Shown here piece by piece: positions 2,340-45,711 of a stretch of DNA of 64,000 bases. The stretch's first letter is position 1, and every line of letters starts with the position of its first letter. Source of the DNA: an uncultured virus (IMG/VR IMGVR_UViG_3300025652_000050). Its lineage: Duplodnaviria > Heunggongvirae > Uroviricota > Caudoviricetes > Crassvirales. The stretch lies in the IMG/VR virus record IMGVR_UViG_3300025652_000050; one strand, given 5' to 3'. A program made the translations under genes and the position numbers. The notes below the pieces were generated by a model. It had not been told where the DNA came from and searched no databases. It saw only the letters and a list, made by a program, of their open reading frames with translations.

Positions 2340-2370
2340 TTTGTAAATTAAAAGAAAAGAATTATCTTTG
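2340..2370 (+). promoter_or_regulatory. Bacteroidota housekeeping-sigma promoter
   Basis: TTTG(2340-2343)-N19-TATCTTTG(2363-2370). Confidence 0.75.
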
Positions 2371-2376
2371 TTCTAA

Positions 2377-2483
2377 TCAATACGGCTTGCAATTCGGATT
2401 GATTATCTGAATTTGCCGTATTTGACAGAAAAAGATAACCCTCAATTAGTCCCGCAAGCCACTATTTTGAGGGTCTTTTCTTT
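2377..2483 (+). ncRNA. Structured leader RNA: 5' hairpin plus terminator-like hairpin whose loop is complementary to the 5' hairpin
   Basis: AATACGGC/GCCGTATT and AATTCGGA/TCTGAATT stems; ACCCTCAA/TTGAGGGT stem plus U tract; loop GCAAGCC complementary to GGCTTGC(2384-2390). Confidence 0.6.
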
Positions 2484-2499
2484 TATAGAATAACCAAAA

Positions 2500-2830
2500 A
2501 AGTTTTACCTCTTGACTGATAAAATAAGAACCGTATATGAAAGTAATTTTATAGTAGTCGGTGGAGTAATCCAAAAAGTAAAATCTAACAGTTGTAAAAA
2601 TCTCGCAATGTTTTAGCTTAACAACGAGTGCTACAAGCCGAAAGGTAAAAGAATAACAACTGAACGAAAAAACCATTCCTGAAAAAGCATTAATTGTTTT
2701 AATTTAAGGAGAAGTCAATAAGAAAAAATGGTGTAGCTCGGAAGTGTAGATTATTGCTTGATGAATTTTTAGGGTATTCATAAATGTTTCAATTGAGTTT
2801 ATCTCTTATTGTAGCATAAAAGCTATGCTA
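2500..2830 (+). ncRNA. Candidate multi-domain structured RNA
   Basis: No credible + strand ORF; nested helices TTTTAC/GTAAAA, CAGTTGT/ACAACTG, ACCATT/AATGGT; two GNRA hairpins; possible GCTACA/TGTAGC pseudoknot. Confidence 0.4.
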
Positions 2831-6501: not shown

Positions 6502-6562
6502 AATAAGTGAATTTGATTTTTTTGCCTACTCTTTTAAAGATTTTCGGCTTCCTCTTTTTTGG

Positions 6563-25918: not shown

Positions 25919-26031
25919 TGCAAGAAAAATTAATAGCTCTACTACCTGAGTGGTTAAAAATAGATAAAATTATAAATCAATTGTTTAATAAAAAAGATTA
26001 TTTTTGTTAAACAATTCATAATCAAAGAGAC

Positions 26032-28424: not shown

Positions 28425-28465
28425 AAAAACAACAACACAACTATTTTAAAAACCACTAATTAATG

Positions 28466-29086
28466 TTAGTGGTTTTTTTTATTTCTTCTTTTTATTAAAT
28501 GTTCAATACATTTTCCTTCCTCAATTAATTTAAGAGCTTCTTGTCTAACATCATAAGCTTCTTTTGGTGTTACATAAGAACCTAAGTTACAATGACCATT
28601 ATTCCACCATATAGTAGATGTATATTTTTTGTGGCTAATTCTTACTCCTGGAAAACCTAATTCATTCACTTTGTCTTTATTTGAATTAGCTCTATTTGTT
28701 ATTACTTGAAAATTACCTACAAAGTTATGAGTTGGTATATTATTTTTATGATCAAAAACTAATTTATTTGTTCCATCTGAAAAATGATTATAAAAAGCCA
28801 TTCCAATTATTAAATGAGTTTTAATATGTCTTTTTTTACTGTTTTTTGATAAAGTAACTCTTAAGTAACCATGACTATCAAAACATTGTTTAAGAATAAT
28901 AGTTGGCCTATGTTGTAGTTTACTTCCGTTTTTTTGAAATCTTTCTAAAGACTTTAATCTACCAATATCACTCACTTGATATAATCCTTCATATTCTGGA
29001 ATATCTTTCCAAATTTCCTCACAAACTTGACCTTCGTCATTCGTGTAAATTATATTTTCTAAACTTAAATTCTTGTAGTATTCCAT
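28466..29086 (-). CDS. NUMOD4-HNH homing endonuclease with AP2-like C-terminus (copy A)
   Basis: EIWKDIPEYEGLYQVSDIGR NUMOD4; DHKN...N...N HNH; HCNLGSY. Confidence 0.88.
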   Translation of the reverse strand: MEYYKNLSLENIIYTNDEGQVCEEIWKDIPEYEGLYQVSDIGRLKSLERFQKNGSKLQHRPTIILKQCFDSHGYLRVTLSKNSKKRHIKTHLIIGMAFYNHFSDGTNKLVFDHKNNIPTHNFVGNFQVITNRANSNKDKVNELGFPGVRISHKKYTSTIWWNNGHCNLGSYVTPKEAYDVRQEALKLIEEGKCIEHLIKRRNKKNH

Positions 29087-29099
29087 GATATTTTAATAT

Positions 29100-29194
29100 A
29101 AAAAGAAAATCCTCAAAGAGCCACTACGCATCTTCAAGGATTTCTCGTTTAGGGTGTTTCACCTATTTATCTTAAACGCAAGTAGTGGATTGCA
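29100..29194 (-). ncRNA. Structured leader RNA of HNH gene A
   Basis: Three hairpins plus CCACTAC/GTAGTGG loop-loop pairing; covaries with 44925-45019; TACATTTG promoter at 29198-29205. Confidence 0.75.
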
Positions 29195-29246
29195 TTGCAA
29201 ATGTATAAAAAAAATCATTACTTTTGTTAATATAATTAAATTAAAT

Positions 29247-31892
29247 ATGATACAATCAAAAGATATTGAAATTTCAATTGGAAATTCTCTTGAAGGACTA
29301 ACAAGAGATATTGACATTTTAACAGTTGATGATGAAAAATTAGAACGATTAGTAAAATCTAGACAAGAATCATTTTCTTCTATAAAAGAAATGCTTGGTA
29401 TATGGCAAAACTCACCAAATGCACCAAGACAAGAAAAACTAATTACATATACTGAAAAACTAATTGCTGCAGGAAACAAAACCTCTGAAATTTTAAGAAG
29501 TGCTTTAGTAAAAGAAATAGACTTTGATGACTTAGATCCTGAAAAATATGGATCAGCAATTAAGTCAAAACCAATAATTTATCGTGCAATTTCAGAGATA
29601 GATTCAGGTATAAAAGTACTTCAGAGACAAATAGAAACAAGTACGTTAACTTTTAAAGAACAAGATTTCAAACCAGGATTTCCAGAGAGGTTTGCAAAAC
29701 AAGAATTATTTCCTGAAAAAGATTATCATAAAGAATGGTATGATGAAGAAAATGAATCTATACTTATTTGTCCAAAAGGAACAAAAGGTGAGGTTATAGA
29801 ACTTAATGGATTAAAAATAACACTACCAGAAGTCCCTAAGAAAAAGTCAGAAATACTATTTAGCAAACTGCCAATAGAAGATCAGTATTGGAAAAGAATA
29901 GAAATGCCAAAAGGATTAAGTCCAGAAAATGAAGAAGAATATTCTGATTATATAGAGCAAGAATTTAAAAAAAGAAGAGAAGGTGTATGGTTTATGAACA
30001 ACGGCAAACCTACATGGGTAACTCCATGTCATTATATGGGACTACAATGGAATCAAATGCTTGAAACAGGAGGTTATAAAGATTTCCGTATGGCACAATG
30101 TACAATGTATTATTTTGCACTTGCAACTATTGTAGATCCTCGTTGTGTAGGTAAAATATTCACTAAAGGTAGAAGATCGGGGTTTACTGAAATGGCACTT
30201 GACCATTTCATGCACTATGCTACATCTACAAAAAATAACCATTTTGGGATAACATCAAAAACAGGTGATGATGCTGTAAAAGCATATACAAAATTTGTTT
30301 ATGGACTACGAAATTTACCATTCTTTTTTATACCTGTTTTAAAAGGTAAAATAGATGACACTAAAAAAATAGAATTTGGAAAACCTTCGGATAATTCAAA
30401 AATTTCTAAAAAGAAAAGAGATACATCTACAGAAGATTACTTAAACGTAACTATTGATTATAGAGCTACTGCCACACTTGCTTATGACTCTATTGCAATG
30501 AAAATGTATATTGGAGATGAAGCAGGTAAATGGGAAAGACCAAATAATTACATTGACCATTGGACTAACGTTAAACCTACCATGGTCCAAGGGGGTAGAG
30601 TAGTTGGAAAAGCATTAATTGGATCAACTTTAAATCCTTTAGATAAAGGAGGTAGAGAGTTTCAGACACTTTATTACGGTTCAGATGTAAGGAAAAGAAA
30701 TTCAAATGGAAGGACTCCTACAGGTTTATATGGTTATTTTTTACCTGCACATAAAAACTATGAAGATTTTACAGATAAATACGGAATTTGTCATGAAATT
30801 CTACAACCAGGAGAATCAATTATTAATTCACATGGAGAAAAGAAAACTATTGGAGCTTTACAGTATTTAGAAAACGAATTTAAGTCAGCAAAATCAATGG
30901 GTTCAAAAGCGTATAATAACTCTAGAAGACTTGACCCAATTACATTAGATGATGCATTTAGAGATGAAATGGCTTCTCAGTTATTAGATACTGAGAAAAT
31001 AAACACTCAATCAAAATACAATAGAGAGAATAATATTGAACACAATTTGGTACGTGGAAACTTTTACGAAAAAGATGGTATTCAAGATGGAGAAGTTATA
31101 TGGAAACCACAAGAAGATGGAAGATTTTTAATTTCATGGTTTCCTCCAAAAGAGATGCGTAATAAGCATGTAATGAAGAATATTTTTGGTAGGATGACCA
31201 AATGTCCTGTTAATGATTTTGGTGCATTTGGAGTTGACTCCTATGACCAAGATGCTGTAATTGATGCTAAACTTGTAGCTACTGAAAATGGTATTGAATA
31301 TGATTTAGGTTCTAAAGGAGCAATGCATGGAGTTACGGGAACAAATATGGGGGATATTCCGAGTAATTATTTCTTTGTAGAATATGTGGCAAGACCAAAA
31401 GATGCTTATACTTTTTTCCAAGATGTTTTATTATGTGCAAGATTTTATTCATTACCTGTACTTGTAGAGAATAATAAAAAAATGCTTTTGGAACATTTTT
31501 ACCAAAGAGGTTATCGTGGATTTTCAATAACTCGTTTTGATAAAGATATGAACAGATTATCACCTGATGAAAAGAAATTAGGAGGTATGCCAAATAGTGG
31601 ACCAGACATTATTCAAAAGCATTGGACTTCATTAGAGAAGTATGTAAATGACTATGTAGGGGAATATGTTTGTGAAGATGGAGAGCAACCAATTAGAGAA
31701 ATTGGAGAAATTGGAGACATGCCATTTAATAGAACTTTAGGAGATTGGTTAAAGTTTGACATTAATAATAGAACGAAATTTGATGCTTCAATTAGTTCTG
31801 GATTAGCACTTATGGCAGTAAATAGAGAAATTTATAGACCTAAAGTTGAAAGAAAAACTGTAACTTTGAAAATAAAACGTTATAGAAATTAA
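29247..31892 (+). CDS. terL: Terminase large subunit with long N-terminal extension
   Basis: KGRRSGFT Walker A, IGDEAGKW Walker B, GVDSYD and KFDASIS nuclease motifs; ATG 29247 follows a TACTTTTG promoter. Confidence 0.9.
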   Translation: MIQSKDIEISIGNSLEGLTRDIDILTVDDEKLERLVKSRQESFSSIKEMLGIWQNSPNAPRQEKLITYTEKLIAAGNKTSEILRSALVKEIDFDDLDPEKYGSAIKSKPIIYRAISEIDSGIKVLQRQIETSTLTFKEQDFKPGFPERFAKQELFPEKDYHKEWYDEENESILICPKGTKGEVIELNGLKITLPEVPKKKSEILFSKLPIEDQYWKRIEMPKGLSPENEEEYSDYIEQEFKKRREGVWFMNNGKPTWVTPCHYMGLQWNQMLETGGYKDFRMAQCTMYYFALATIVDPRCVGKIFTKGRRSGFTEMALDHFMHYATSTKNNHFGITSKTGDDAVKAYTKFVYGLRNLPFFFIPVLKGKIDDTKKIEFGKPSDNSKISKKKRDTSTEDYLNVTIDYRATATLAYDSIAMKMYIGDEAGKWERPNNYIDHWTNVKPTMVQGGRVVGKALIGSTLNPLDKGGREFQTLYYGSDVRKRNSNGRTPTGLYGYFLPAHKNYEDFTDKYGICHEILQPGESIINSHGEKKTIGALQYLENEFKSAKSMGSKAYNNSRRLDPITLDDAFRDEMASQLLDTEKINTQSKYNRENNIEHNLVRGNFYEKDGIQDGEVIWKPQEDGRFLISWFPPKEMRNKHVMKNIFGRMTKCPVNDFGAFGVDSYDQDAVIDAKLVATENGIEYDLGSKGAMHGVTGTNMGDIPSNYFFVEYVARPKDAYTFFQDVLLCARFYSLPVLVENNKKMLLEHFYQRGYRGFSITRFDKDMNRLSPDEKKLGGMPNSGPDIIQKHWTSLEKYVNDYVGEYVCEDGEQPIREIGEIGDMPFNRTLGDWLKFDINNRTKFDASISSGLALMAVNREIYRPKVERKTVTLKIKRYRN

Positions 31893-43789: not shown

Positions 43790-44191
43790 ATGAATTTTAC
43801 AGTAAAAAAACATAGTACGGAAGAAGTTTATGATATTATGTGTTCCTTTTGGGATATGCATAAATTTCCAAGAGTAGATTTATCGTATCTACCTGTAAAC
43901 ACATTCATTGTCTATTCAGAGGAAATTCCTTTGTATTCAATGTGTTTTTACTTTACAGATGCGAAAGGTTTAGCTTGGATAGCATGGCAAATTTCAAATA
44001 AAAATGTTACATTTAAGAAAAGAGATGGAGCATTAGCAGTACTTTTAAATCATATAAAAAACTATGCTAAGAAAAAAGGGGTAGGATTTCTTATGACAAC
44101 CTCAAATACTGAAGCAGTAGTAACCGTTCTTAAAAATTCAGATTTTATTGAAGGTGATTTGAATGTCAACCAATATTTTTGCAAATTATAA
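43790..44191 (+). CDS. GNAT-like protein of the podovirus virion module
   Basis: AWIAWQISN...GALAVLL...AKKKG pattern; position ahead of the ejection proteins. Confidence 0.55.
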   Translation: MNFTVKKHSTEEVYDIMCSFWDMHKFPRVDLSYLPVNTFIVYSEEIPLYSMCFYFTDAKGLAWIAWQISNKNVTFKKRDGALAVLLNHIKNYAKKKGVGFLMTTSNTEAVVTVLKNSDFIEGDLNVNQYFCKL

Positions 44192-44911
44192 TATTAATCC
44201 TTTTTGTTTAAAAAATAATAATCTAGCGTTATATCCTTCTTCTTTTGTTTTAAAGTATCCTAAATTATATGTTTTTCCATTAAAAGAAGCTCTGGCATAA
44301 AAAACTTGACCTTTTTTGTAAACACATTTATATATATCTATTGACTTTTTATTTCTTACAGATAGAAAATCTTTGCCTAACAAATATAATTCAATAGATT
44401 TTTTTCTTGCAAATATAGCATCTTCTTTATTATCAAATACCCCTATGTTATATGCTTTATTATCAAAAAAAACACTTGCTCCAAACTTTCCGTTTTTAGA
44501 CAAATACAACCCTAATTCACCTGTTTTATTAAAAATATTTTTAGAATCATTTTCTCTATGAGAAATTATTTGTAAATTACATAATCTATTATCAGTTTTT
44601 ATATTATTTATATGGTCAACTATTTTGTTGTGTCCATTGGGAATATGATTTAAGAAAACATTTGCAATCAAAACATGTATAGCATTAGGTTTTTTATTGT
44701 TACAAACACAAAGACAAATGTATCTATATGTTTTAAAAAAAGAACCCTTTAGTATTTTTGTTTTTTTTCTGCAACTTTTTACTCTTCCTAAATCACTTAC
44801 TTGATATAATCCTTCATATTCTGGAATATCTTTCCAAATTTCTTCACAAACTTGACCTTCATCATTTGTGTAAATTATATTTTCTAAACTTAAGTTTTTG
44901 TAGTATTCCAT
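44186..44911 (-). CDS. NUMOD4-HNH homing endonuclease with two AP2-like repeats (copy B)
   Basis: First 40 aa identical to copy A; VDHINNIKTDNRLCNL; YNIGVF and YNLGYF repeats. Confidence 0.9.
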   Translation of the reverse strand: MEYYKNLSLENIIYTNDEGQVCEEIWKDIPEYEGLYQVSDLGRVKSCRKKTKILKGSFFKTYRYICLCVCNNKKPNAIHVLIANVFLNHIPNGHNKIVDHINNIKTDNRLCNLQIISHRENDSKNIFNKTGELGLYLSKNGKFGASVFFDNKAYNIGVFDNKEDAIFARKKSIELYLLGKDFLSVRNKKSIDIYKCVYKKGQVFYARASFNGKTYNLGYFKTKEEGYNARLLFFKQKGLIL

Positions 44912-44924
44912 GATGTTTTAATAT

Positions 44925-45019
44925 AAAAAGAAAATCCAAATAGAGCTACTACACATCTATTTGGACTTCTCGTTTAGGGTGTTTCACCTATTTATCTTAA
45001 ACGCAAGTAGTAGATTGCG
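44925..45019 (-). ncRNA. Structured leader RNA of HNH gene B
   Basis: Same fold as 29100-29194 with CTACTAC/GTAGTAG pairing; TATATTTG promoter at 45023-45030. Confidence 0.75.
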
Positions 45020-45096
45020 AGACAAATATATAAATATTAATTCAATTTAATTAAAAAAAATCATTATTTTTGTTTAATAATTTATAAATTATAATT

Positions 45097-45711
45097 ATGG
45101 CATCAGCAGGAGCAGGAGCATTAGGAGCAGGTGTTGGATTGTACCAGACAATTCAAGGATCCAAACAAGCTAAAGAAGCAAGACAAGCATTGGAAGATTA
45201 CCAAAGACAAGAACTCGTGAATACAGGTGAAGGTCTTCAAGTATCTACAATGGGTGCGGATTTACAAAGAGAGGAGCAACAAAGAATGGCTGCTACTCAA
45301 ACTAATGCTTTACAAGAAGGAGGAACAAGAGCAATTGTAGGTGGTGCAGGTAGAGTTGAAGCAGGAAACCAAAGAGTAAACAGACAAATTGGTGCTGATT
45401 TAGATATGCAACAAAAACAGATTGAACAATATACTGCTCAAGAAGGTGTTAGACTTCAAGGAATGACTGAGCAAAGGCAAAATATGGATATTAATGCATT
45501 AAGTTCTCAATACAATACAGGGCAACAAAATATGATGTCAGGATTAGGGAATATTATTGCAGGAACAGGACAAGCAGCAGTTGGAGCTATGGGTAAAAAC
45601 ACTACAGCTACACCAGTTACACTAAATACTACTCAAAACGCAGATGGAACTTTTAGCTATAAAGGACCTACAAGTTCTACAATGATAGATAATAATAACT
45701 ACTTAGGATAA
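45097..45711 (+). CDS. Internal virion / ejection protein
   Basis: A/G-rich hydrophobic N-terminus, Q-rich helices. Confidence 0.7.
   Translation: MASAGAGALGAGVGLYQTIQGSKQAKEARQALEDYQRQELVNTGEGLQVSTMGADLQREEQQRMAATQTNALQEGGTRAIVGGAGRVEAGNQRVNRQIGADLDMQQKQIEQYTAQEGVRLQGMTEQRQNMDINALSSQYNTGQQNMMSGLGNIIAGTGQAAVGAMGKNTTATPVTLNTTQNADGTFSYKGPTSSTMIDNNNYLG

What the first reader, a model, noticed from the sequence alone, without database searches (positions are those of the whole stretch)
29087..29205. Covarying pseudoknotted leader RNA in front of NUMOD4-HNH endonuclease A
Seen on the minus strand, in order: promoter TACATTTG; hairpin GCAA-UCCACUAC-UUGC; a CGUUUA...UAAACG domain containing GGUG-AAA-CACC; a terminator-like stem UCCUUGAAGA/UCUUUGAGGA with loop UGCGUAGUGGC and a U tract; then the ATG ~15 nt later. 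The two loops are complementary over 7 nt (CCACUAC/GUAGUGG). In copy B four consecutive stem pairs change yet all still pair (UCCAAAUAGA/UCUAUUUGGA), and the loop-loop pair switches C-G to U-A on both sides. The G-U pairs work only on this strand, which fixes the orientation. Inference: a conserved attenuator, antitoxin-like RNA or RNP partner that travels with the nuclease. I cannot assign it to a known family.
Basis: partly seen in the sequence, partly recalled or inferred. Interest (0 to 1): 0.8.

Follow-up and report, generated by a model that had tools for sequence, protein, structure and literature searches.

The report
Pseudoknotted terminator leader RNA in flavobacterial phages
A roughly 95-base folded RNA that ends in a transcription stop signal sits between a promoter and the homing-endonuclease genes of this phage, and the same RNA precedes DNA-replication genes in related uncultured phages, so it looks like a portable gene-dosing switch and not a partner of the nuclease.

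Summary
Both window copies (29097-29195 and 44922-45020, minus strand) have the described hairpins, terminator and 7-nt loop-loop complementarity. I found 24 leader loci (22 distinct sequences in alignment A3, plus L269 and a duplicate-sequence locus) in uncultured phage contigs and one Flavobacterium MAG contig.

Covariation:
- The loop-loop helix pairs in 154 of 154 cells, with five different complementary 7-mer pairs.
- The terminator stem has double changes at 10 of 10 pairs.
- The middle hairpin has them at 4 of 5 pairs.
- G-U pairs fix the strand.

No Rfam 15 family matches.

A Bacteroidetes TAnnTTTG box lies 4-8 nt upstream in 22 of 23 loci. At least four U follow the stem in 21 of 22 distinct sequences (three in the other). 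A start codon follows closely.

Downstream genes at the 24 loci:
- 12 HNH endonucleases
- 5 helicases
- 2 primase-polymerases
- 1 C5 methylase
- 4 of unknown family

The RNA therefore does not belong to the nuclease. The best reading is a portable promoter-proximal attenuator that homing endonucleases have co-opted. The effector is unknown. An unnamed entry in a 2023 catalogue may be the same motif.

The parts
29198..29205 (-). Copy A: TACATTTG, a Bacteroidetes sigma-A type -7 box (TAnnTTTG). It lies 4 nt before the first G of hairpin H1, so the predicted transcription start is that G.
   Evidence: An exact TAnnTTTG lies 4-8 nt before GCAA in 22 of 23 loci. The box occupies -12 to -5 in Flavobacterium psychrophilum (PMC9723704, passage seen). 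The transcription start is inferred, not measured.
29178..29193 (-). Copy A hairpin H1: GCAA-UCCACUAC-UUGC. Loop L1 holds the 7-mer CCACUAC (29188-29182).
   Evidence: The stem is invariant in the 22 sequences, but my search patterns required it, so this says nothing. The G001 variant has a different H1 stem, UUAUAG/UUAUAA.
29166..29177 (-). Copy A junction J1: a variable 3-4 nt followed by the conserved AAGAUA(A/U)(A/U).
   Evidence: AAGAUA is invariant in alignments A2 and A3 and is also present in the G001 variant. No pairing partner was found.
29150..29165 (-). Copy A hairpin P3: UAGGUG-AAA-CACC(C)UA.
   Evidence: 4 of 5 pairs show changes on both sides across the family. The loop sequence is not conserved (GAAA, UAAC, AAUA, AAC, UUUU and others).
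29110..29140 (-). Copy A hairpin P4, terminator-like: UCCUUGAAGA / UCUUUGAGGA with 11-nt loop L2, UGCGUAGUGGC. GUAGUGG (29127-29121) pairs with L1.
   Evidence: 10 of 10 stem pairs have changes on both sides and 99.1% of cells pair. 28 G-U cells make the sense strand 99.1% paired against 86.3% for the antisense strand. The L1-L2 helix pairs in 154 of 154 cells and 4 of 7 pairs have double changes.
29100..29109 (-). Copy A U tract (UUUUCUUUUU) directly after the G+C-rich base of P4.
   Evidence: A run of at least 4 U at or one base after the end of the stem in 21 of 22 distinct sequences. The other (L241) starts UUUG after a stem whose last base is U.
28466..29086 (-). HNH-A: NUMOD4 / HNH-family homing endonuclease gene (206 aa), opposite in orientation to both neighbouring genes.
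   Evidence: Pfam NUMOD4 6.5e-16. PHROG HNH endonuclease 9e-22. Orientation.
28448..28477 (.). 13-bp hairpin with T runs on both sides, between the 99-aa plus-strand gene and the end of HNH-A. Probably a two-way terminator that closes the HNH-A unit.
   Evidence: Identical in G001.
45023..45030 (-). Copy B: TATATTTG -7 box, 4 nt before H1.
44922..45020 (-). Copy B leader: H1 45018-45003 (loop UCUACUAC), P3 44990-44975, P4 44965-44935 (loop UGUGUAGUAGC), U tract 44934-44925.
   Evidence: Covariance-model hit of 101.6 bits. Alignment to copy A.
44186..44911 (-). HNH-B: NUMOD4 + HNH_3 homing endonuclease gene (241 aa), inverted relative to its neighbours.
   Evidence: Pfam NUMOD4 8.5e-17 and HNH_3 3.7e-6. 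Orientation.

Best explanation
This is a portable expression cassette of phages of Flavobacteriaceae.

A host-type sigma-A promoter (TAnnTTTG) starts an RNA at, or a few bases before, a 5'-terminal hairpin (H1). The RNA continues through a conserved single-stranded stretch (AAGAUAUU), a second hairpin (P3) and a G+C-based hairpin followed by a U run (P4), which is an intrinsic terminator. The 7 bases of the H1 loop pair with 7 bases of the terminator loop, so the roughly 95-nt RNA closes on itself as a kissing-loop pseudoknot. The start codon of the regulated gene lies about 20 nt further on.

The gene can be expressed only by polymerases that read through P4, so the leader acts as a transcription attenuator that sets or gates the dose of the downstream gene. 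The unusually large terminator loop (8-12 nt) docked on H1 is the likely control point: whatever changes the kiss changes how well P4 terminates.

In small phage genomes the cassette heads the replication genes (helicase, primase-polymerase). Free-standing HNH homing endonuclease genes, inserted backwards between late genes, carry the same cassette as their own promoter and leader. Because it works in unrelated phage backbones, its effector, if any, should be a host factor, a common metabolite, or nothing beyond the fold itself.

Shown: the fold, the strand, the U run, the promoter box position, the gene contexts. Inferred: the transcription start, termination, read-through and any regulation.
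For: **Fold.**
- On 22 distinct sequences the four helices pair in 97.9% of cells. 18 of 26 pairs have changes on both sides, against 7.6 +/- 1.6 in shuffles (0 of 500 shuffles reach it).
- The kiss alone pairs in 154 of 154 cells with five partner sets: CCACUAC/GUAGUGG, CUACUAC/GUAGUAG, CCAUCAC/GUGAUGG, CUCUCAC/GUGAGAG and CUAUCAC/GUGAUAG.
- The four non-majority sets were seen outside the window only in loci from patterns that did not fix the variable loop positions.
- A variant that the model cannot detect, in G001, keeps the plan with an 8-bp kiss, CAUCUCAC/GUGAGAUG.

**Strand.** 28 G-U cells in P4.

**Terminator.** The stem base is G+C-rich. At least 4 U follow at or one base after the stem end in 21 of 22 sequences.

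**Promoter.** An exact TAnnTTTG lies 4-8 nt before H1 in 22 of 23 loci. The box sits at -12 to -5 in a Flavobacterium.

**Acts in cis.**
- An ORF starts 16-26 nt after the model end in 21 of 23 loci. One starts at 53 nt, and one was called from a TTG inside the U run.
- The inverted HNH cassettes have no other candidate promoter.

**Not nuclease-specific.** 12 HNH, 5 helicase, 2 Prim-Pol, 1 C5 methylase, 4 unknown.

**Cassette is an insertion.** Cultured relatives elemoB and Panino have the GroES gene directly before the terminase gene.

**Not a host element in those searched.** Found in 1 of 151 genomes of the family of the MAG that carries one copy, and that one is the MAG itself.
Against: - The start, the 3' end and read-through are all unmeasured.
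- No conserved alternative (antiterminator) helix was found in the alignment. The classical switch logic is therefore missing, and the element may be a constitutive damper.
- The terminator loop is larger than in textbook terminators, and the simple terminator scan did not flag P4.
- The H1 stem and part of the J1 conservation are built into my search patterns.
- The U run could partly reflect the A+U-rich translation start regions of Bacteroidetes.
- 11 of the 22 sequences come from a pattern that fixed the majority loop sequences and add nothing to the test of the kiss.
Confidence: 0.6

Rival explanations
1. A riboswitch-like sensor. The conserved junction bases (AAGAUAUU, AAC) together with the kiss form a pocket for a small molecule or a host protein. 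Binding stabilises or loosens the docking of the terminator loop and so times replication genes and homing endonucleases. This is a special case of the attenuator reading, with a defined effector.
For: Invariant unpaired bases lie next to covarying helices. The pseudoknotted fold is compact, a terminator serves as the output, and the downstream genes all act on DNA. Portability across phage backbones argues for a universal effector. From memory, not from a call: cobalamin riboswitches dock an aptamer loop onto the loop of the regulatory hairpin.
Against: No mutually exclusive helix was found. No ligand is suggested by gene context in the way biosynthetic or transporter genes would suggest one. 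No Rfam aptamer matches even at E up to 10. The P3 loop is not conserved.
Confidence: 0.2
2. A stand-alone small RNA of about 95 nt is the product, acting in trans or as a decoy. Expression of the downstream gene by read-through is incidental.
For: The element has its own promoter and a strong-looking terminator. Both ends are protected by structure. A second promoter-structure-terminator unit with no adjacent ORF exists at window 2363-2485.
Against: A start codon follows within 16-26 nt in 21 of 23 loci, and every locus has a downstream ORF. The inverted HNH genes have no other promoter. The only conserved complementarity of the loops is to each other.
Confidence: 0.12
3. A 5' UTR stabiliser or translation element. 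The 5'-terminal hairpin and compact fold protect the mRNA, P4 is only a stable hairpin, and little termination occurs.
For: H1 sits at the predicted 5' end. The start region downstream is unpaired in the predicted folds. A very stable hairpin just upstream of the ribosome-binding site is described for seg43(25) of Aeromonas phage 25 (PMC2988022, passage seen).
Against: The run of U directly after a G+C-rich stem base, seen in 21 of 22 sequences across diverged lineages, is the signature of an intrinsic terminator. Protection alone does not explain the conserved junction bases or the kiss.
Confidence: 0.06
4. One reading: an antitoxin-like RNA or an RNA partner that binds and travels with the HNH nuclease.
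For: 12 of 24 loci precede HNH genes. Copies A and B share the leader together with the first 130 nt or so of the gene.
Against: The same RNA precedes helicase, Prim-Pol and methylase genes. Three HNH architectures (NUMOD4-HNH_3, HNH_3-AP2, NUMOD4 only) share it. In G001 a homologous HNH gene at the same locus has a different leader sequence.
Confidence: 0.02

Closest known systems
Regulation of free-standing homing endonuclease genes in T4-type phages: terminators in mobE and segF, RBS-sequestering hairpins of I-TevI, segB and Aeh1 mobE, and antisense-oriented segD (review PMC2988022, passages seen)
   Same: Homing endonuclease genes in phages are kept at low or timed expression by intrinsic terminators and RNA hairpins near their 5' ends. 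One of them (segD) is inverted between essential late genes.
   Different: The T4 elements are single hairpins. They sit inside the coding region or over the ribosome-binding site, and many of those genes have no promoter of their own. Here the gene brings its own host-type promoter and a four-helix pseudoknotted leader. The start codon is not sequestered, and the same leader also serves replication genes.
Riboswitch expression platforms whose hairpin loop docks on the aptamer, such as the cobalamin L5-L13 kissing loop (from memory, no call)
   Same: A loop-loop helix ties an upstream structured domain to the loop of the hairpin that controls expression.
   Different: There is no cobalamin aptamer core and no Rfam match. 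No ligand is known, and no alternative pairing was found.
Promoter-proximal terminators that gate phage operons: lambda PR'-tR' '6S' RNA with Q, nut/N, and HK022 put (from memory, no call)
   Same: A short terminated RNA lies just downstream of a phage promoter, and the genes beyond are expressed only by read-through.
   Different: Those systems depend on phage-encoded Q or N, or on a put RNA that acts on polymerase, and their terminators are not part of a conserved fold. Here the terminator loop is itself a conserved pairing partner, and the cassette moves between unrelated phage backbones.
Kissing complexes of antisense control systems, ColE1 RNA I/RNA II and the P1/P7 c4 RNA with its covarying loops (from memory; c4 is Rfam RF01695)
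   Same: Loop-loop helices of 7 nt. In c4, compensatory loop differences distinguish related phages.
   Different: Those pair two different transcripts. Here both loops lie in one roughly 95-nt RNA. No Rfam c4 match.
Unnamed candidates DNAVirus_8377 and DNAVirus_1203 in the IMG/VR catalogue of Fremin et al. 2023 (PMC10690425)
   Same: DNAVirus_8377 is 105 nt with 88 sequences, is predicted to hold a terminator, has Bacteroidetes hosts where predicted, and lies within 25 bp upstream of HNH_3, NUMOD4 and AP2 genes. DNAVirus_1203 is 96 nt with 18 aquatic sequences, upstream of NUMOD4/HNH_3 genes (supplementary tables).
   Different: Identity could not be checked. The alignment archives could not be read and the contig numbers were not found in file 4. 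The tables report 3 and 1 covarying bases. The passages and tables I saw describe no pseudoknot, no replication-gene context and no function.

Membership tests
Any Rfam 15 family (4227 models) | Score at or above the family's gathering threshold | tested here: not met
   The whole window at gathering thresholds gave only DUF805b at 6523-6557. The leader region at E up to 10 gave six chance-level hits of 14-21 bits against thresholds of 37-90.
Intrinsic (Rho-independent) terminator | Stable hairpin with a G+C-rich base followed directly by a U run | tested here: met
   The stem pairs in 99.1% of cells with covariation at 10 of 10 pairs. At least 4 U follow at or one base after the stem end in 21 of 22 distinct sequences.
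Intrinsic (Rho-independent) terminator | Short loop (about 3-8 nt) | tested here: not met
   The loop is 11 nt in most members and 8-12 nt overall. The consensus scan with loop 3-8 did not flag P4.
Intrinsic (Rho-independent) terminator | RNA 3' ends at the U run | not testable with these tools
Transcriptional riboswitch | Conserved unpaired bases framed by covarying helices (aptamer) | tested here: inconclusive
   AAGAUA is invariant, along with the UAG...CUA base of P3 and AAC. Part of this conservation was imposed by the search patterns.
Transcriptional riboswitch | Mutually exclusive terminator and antiterminator pairings | tested here: not met
   A scan of all column pairs of A3 found no further conserved helix of 3 bp or more that competes with P4.
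Transcriptional riboswitch | Binding of a ligand | not testable with these tools
   Needs probing or binding assays.
T4-type translational hairpins of homing endonuclease genes | [quoted passage not shown] | tested here: not met
   The start codon lies 16-26 nt beyond the model end in 21 of 23 loci and is unpaired in the predicted folds.
   12 of 24 loci are HNH. The rest are helicase, Prim-Pol, methylase or unknown.
Catalogue candidates DNAVirus_8377 / DNAVirus_1203 (PMC10690425) | Sequence or alignment identity | not testable with these tools
   The archives with the alignments could not be read. Only summary rows were seen.

The most novel reading that the evidence does not exclude
A new class of phage riboregulator in which the loop of an intrinsic terminator is part of the sensor. 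A 5'-terminal hairpin kisses the terminator loop, and a conserved junction (AAGAUAUU / AAC) binds a host-supplied signal, such as a nucleotide-related metabolite or a host protein. That signal couples read-through into replication genes, and into hitch-hiking homing endonucleases, to the state of the infected cell. The covarying 7-mers would then serve as private 'addresses' that keep co-resident copies from mispairing. In all three genomes with two copies the two kisses differ (window A and B; G009; G001).
Probability: 0.15. Interest if true: 0.85.

Novelty: new variant of a known kind. Interest (0 to 1): 0.62.

Why it matters
The motif is absent from Rfam 15 and has unusually clean covariation, including a pseudoknot supported by five compensatory loop pairs. 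It comes from a poorly studied group, the phages of marine and freshwater Flavobacteriaceae.

It shows a concrete route by which free-standing homing endonucleases solve their expression problem when inserted backwards into late operons. They carry a promoter-leader cassette that the same phage community uses for replication genes.

A terminator whose loop is a conserved docking partner is an uncommon design. It is directly testable with loop mutants and compensatory rescue. If it responds to a signal, it would be a new phage-borne sensor.

It is also a compact, host-promoter-driven part that could be useful for tuning expression in Bacteroidetes.

Tried and rejected
58.8% paired across the family and no better than shuffles. 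I checked by eye a CUUG/CAAG pairing and pairings of J1 with either arm of P4. None is kept across the variants, and the column-pair scan found nothing.
- **Short upstream ORF in the terminator** (MRSGSLRIFFLY in A, MCSSSIWIFFLY in B). Every difference between the copies changes the amino acid while keeping the RNA pairs, so it is not coding.
- **DNA-level inverted repeat or function on the plus strand.** G-U cells make the antisense strand pair less well, 86.3% against 99.1%.
- **Exact 18-mer scan of metagenomes.** 69 loci, of which 67 were unrelated genes; only L059 (the same as copy B) and L060 were real.
- **Cultured phages.** blastn of the leaders found nothing relevant. The model found nothing in 5 of 5 related complete genomes: elemoB, Panino, phi38:1, phi13:2 and Gundel_1.
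- **More copies.** Four of five further contigs searched whole hold one strong copy each; three complete genomes also hold one copy. G009 holds two.
- **Generic scan of the window and stored loci** for terminators whose loop complements upstream sequence. Apart from A and B, the counts are at shuffle level. Only window 2363-2485 and the G001 variant looked credible.
- **Earlier findings of this scan.** None.
- **Catalogue identity.** Could not be checked.

Full report
**What is in the window.** On the minus strand the stretch 29205-29087 reads as follows:
- TACATTTG
- 4 nt
- GCAA-UCCACUAC-UUGC (H1)
- GUUU-AAGAUAAA (J1)
- UAGGUG-AAA-CACC-C-UA (P3)
- AACGAGAAA (J2)
- UCCUUGAAGA-UGCGUAGUGGC-UCUUUGAGGA (P4)
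- UUUUCUUUUU
- 13 nt
- ATG of a 206-aa ORF (28466-29086)

Pfam places that ORF in NUMOD4 and PHROGs in HNH endonucleases.

A second copy lies at 45030-44912 before a 241-aa NUMOD4+HNH_3 ORF. The two copies are 89% identical over 257 nt, which covers the leader and the first 130 nt or so of the genes. The sense strands fold with z = -3.3 and -3.6.

Both HNH genes point against all their neighbours. They sit back to back with plus-strand promoter-like boxes of the terminase large subunit gene (29247-31892) and of a gp14-like virion protein gene (45097-45711).

**Finding relatives.**
- Exact scans with pieces of the central domain first returned only copies identical to A or B.
- They then returned one new variant (L022) and one from metagenomes (L060). 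The other 67 of the 69 metagenome loci were unrelated genes or a repeat of copy B.
- A pattern fixing both loop sequences gave 11 viral loci.
- To avoid circularity I then used two patterns that leave the variable loop positions free: GCAA-N8-TTGC-N3-4-AAGATAWWT and a more specific version.
- I filtered the results with a covariance model built from 11 sequences (R1).
- The final model-based alignment A3 holds 28 hits and 22 distinct sequences.
- A second model (R2) found one more copy in a complete 74.8-kb genome (L269).
- The members come from uncultured viral contigs, one metagenome contig and one contig of a Flavobacterium MAG. That MAG contig carries the cassette next to the same gp14-like gene family as copy B.

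**Structure.** With the pseudoknot written in, 97.9% of 571 cells pair, against 83.5 +/- 0.9% in shuffles and 34-44% when partners are slid. 18 of 26 pairs have changes on both sides, against 7.6 +/- 1.6 in shuffles (0 of 500 reach it).
- **P4.** All 10 pairs have double changes.
- **P3.** 4 of 5 pairs have double changes. The 10 unpaired cells are the five members with a longer P3, which the model misaligns. Read by eye they pair as UAGGUG/CACC-C-UA or with G-U. The P3 loop is not conserved.
- **The kiss.** 154 of 154 cells pair. 4 of 7 pairs have double changes (5 of 500 shuffles reach that). The covariation score is 0.272 against 0.125 +/- 0.018 (0 of 500). The five partner sets are CCACUAC/GUAGUGG, CUACUAC/GUAGUAG, CCAUCAC/GUGAUGG, CUCUCAC/GUGAGAG and CUAUCAC/GUGAUAG.
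- **Limits of the kiss test.** The pseudoknot is not part of the covariance model, so the alignment was not fitted to it. However, 11 of the 22 sequences were retrieved with the majority loops fixed and carry no information on this point.
- **H1.** The stem never varies, but my patterns required it.
- **Strand.** 28 G-U cells in P4 make the sense strand 99.1% paired and the antisense strand 86.3%.
Not kept: 58.8% paired, and 47 of 500 shuffles reach it.
- **Other helices.** A scan of all column pairs found no further conserved helix, and in particular no antiterminator.

**A more distant variant.** In G001, the record nearest to the window, the flanks of the HNH-A locus are 99% identical. The promoter box, the last bases before the ATG and the start of the HNH gene are all conserved, but the 100 nt or so between them are different. 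Model R2 does not detect this variant. It still has:
- a 5' hairpin, UUAUAG-CAUCUCAC-UUAUAA;
- the AAGAUAUU stretch;
- a long hairpin followed by AUUUUUU, whose loop holds GUGAGAUG, complementary to the first loop over 8 nt.

It has no P3. The family is therefore wider than my model sees, and the kiss between a 5' hairpin and the terminator loop is its constant feature.

**Signals around the fold.**
- An exact TAnnTTTG lies 4-8 nt before GCAA in 22 of 23 loci, and the other has one mismatch.
- The octamer alone is at chance frequency in this A+T-rich window (127 found, 123.6 expected). Only its fixed position counts.
- In Flavobacterium psychrophilum the sigma-A box occupies -12 to -5 (PMC9723704, passage seen). 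With a 4-nt spacing this puts the start on the G of GCAA, so H1 would be the very 5' end. That is an inference.
- A run of at least four U starts at or one base after the end of the stem in 21 of 22 sequences. L241 has UUUG after a stem ending in U.
- A long ORF starts 16-26 nt after the model end in 21 of 23 loci. One starts at 53 nt, and one was called from a TTG inside the U run.
- P4 has an 8-12-nt loop, larger than textbook terminators, and the simple scan with loops of 3-8 nt did not flag it.

**Gene context.** Downstream genes at the 24 loci:

| Downstream gene | Loci | How assigned |
|---|---|---|
| HNH-type endonuclease (NUMOD4, HNH_3 and/or AP2) | 12 | L269 from its N-terminal sequence only |
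| SF2 helicase | 5 | three by Pfam, two by near-identical N-termini |
| Prim-Pol/DUF3987 protein | 2 | one by Pfam |
| C5 DNA methylase | 1 | Pfam |
| No Pfam family | 4 | two of them in PHROGs of unknown function |

In one search (22 loci), 12 loci are cassettes of one or two genes inverted against both neighbours. Ten of these are HNH cassettes, and the other two carry proteins of unknown family (L247, L254). The remaining HNH locus in that set (L242) is inverted against its upstream neighbour only. The helicase and Prim-Pol leaders are co-oriented with the genes on both sides, in complete genomes of 37-42 kb that hold a single copy.

Cultured relatives elemoB and Panino have the GroES gene directly before the terminase gene, so HNH-A with its leader is an insertion. 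The model finds nothing in 5 of 5 related cultured phage genomes. It finds a hit in 1 of 151 genomes of the MAG's family, the MAG itself, among those searched and with strict filters.

**How it most likely works.** The inverted HNH genes have no other promoter, and every locus has a gene close behind the U run. The RNA is therefore a cis-acting leader, and the gene can be made only by read-through of P4. That makes it a promoter-proximal attenuator.

The conserved kiss ties the 5' hairpin to an unusually large terminator loop. I propose, as an inference, that this docking sets the termination efficiency and is the point where regulation, if any, acts.

The cassette works in at least two kinds of phage backbone and moves with homing endonuclease genes. 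A phage-specific antiterminator is therefore unlikely. A host factor, a common metabolite, or no effector at all (a fixed damper with a protected 5' end) fits better.

The more diverse helicase and Prim-Pol leaders, and the more uniform HNH leaders, are consistent with endonucleases having borrowed a replication-gene leader. I did not build a tree, so the direction of that borrowing is not shown.

**Comparison with what is known.**
- No Rfam 15 family matches.
- T4-type phages restrain homing endonuclease genes with terminators inside the gene and with hairpins over the ribosome-binding site, and one such gene is inverted between late genes (PMC2988022, passages seen). The purpose is the same but the device differs.
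- Kissing of an aptamer loop to the regulatory hairpin (cobalamin riboswitches), promoter-proximal terminators read through by Q or N, put RNAs, and the covarying loops of c4 RNA are analogies recalled from memory. None was tested here.
- A catalogue of 8,495 candidate structured RNAs from IMG/VR lists unnamed entries that may be this motif. DNAVirus_8377 is 105 nt with 88 sequences, is predicted to hold a terminator, has Bacteroidetes hosts and lies upstream of HNH_3, NUMOD4 and AP2 genes. DNAVirus_1203 is 96 nt with 18 sequences (PMC10690425: passages, supplementary tables).
- The alignments of that catalogue could not be read, so priority of detection is open. In the passages and tables I saw there is no pseudoknot, no replication-gene context and no function.
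- My two literature searches for such an element and one on Cellulophaga phage transcription returned nothing closer.

**Verdict.** The structure is real with high confidence. The attenuator reading is the best supported (0.6). The link to the nuclease is one of co-option, not partnership. This is a new, well-supported RNA motif of a known general kind, with an unusual design and an unknown effector.

Noticed in passing
window 6523-6557 (-): Rfam DUF805b RNA (RF02914) matches at 54.9 bits against a gathering score of 35.6. It is the only Rfam family found in the window.
   Followed up: no
window 2363-2485 (+): A TATCTTTG box is followed by a structured stretch of about 110 nt and a strong terminator (CCCTCAA...TTGAGGG, then TCTTTTCTTTT). 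The terminator loop holds GCAAGCC, complementary to GGCTTGC in an upstream hairpin loop. No plus-strand ORF follows until 2859. Model R1 gives a weak hit of 14.8 bits. This may be a separate small RNA with a similar loop-to-loop plan.
   Followed up: partly
window 25970-26010, 29190-29230, 45024-45087 (+): A repeated promoter-like motif (an A run, then AT.A.TTTTGTTAA containing TAnnTTTG) lies upstream of plus-strand structural and packaging genes. At 29190-29230 it sits back to back with the copy A leader promoter (families D2 and D18).
   Followed up: no
window 28448-28477: A 13-bp hairpin flanked by A and T runs lies between the convergent 99-aa gene and HNH-A. It is probably a two-way terminator and is identical in G001.
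   Followed up: no
L271 about 2500-2625 (+) (G001, same locus as copy A): A homologous HNH gene with the same promoter box and ORF start carries a different leader. It has an 8-bp kiss (CAUCUCAC/GUGAGAUG) and no P3, and the covariance model does not detect it. The leader segment seems to be exchanged as a module between near-identical phages.
   Followed up: partly
window copies A and B; L269 and L270 (G009); L271 and L003 (G001): In each of the three genomes that hold two leaders, the two copies use different kissing 7-mers or 8-mers. With the majority loop in 14 of 22 variants, three out of three is not significant, but it would fit selection against cross-pairing.
   Followed up: no
window 29130-29092 and 44955-44917 (-): A 12-codon ORF starts at an ATG that spans the junction of the P4 stem and its loop, in both copies. 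The ORF finder extended the L060 methylase ORF from the equivalent ATG. All differences between copies A and B change the amino acid while keeping the RNA pairs, so it is most likely not translated for its product.
   Followed up: partly
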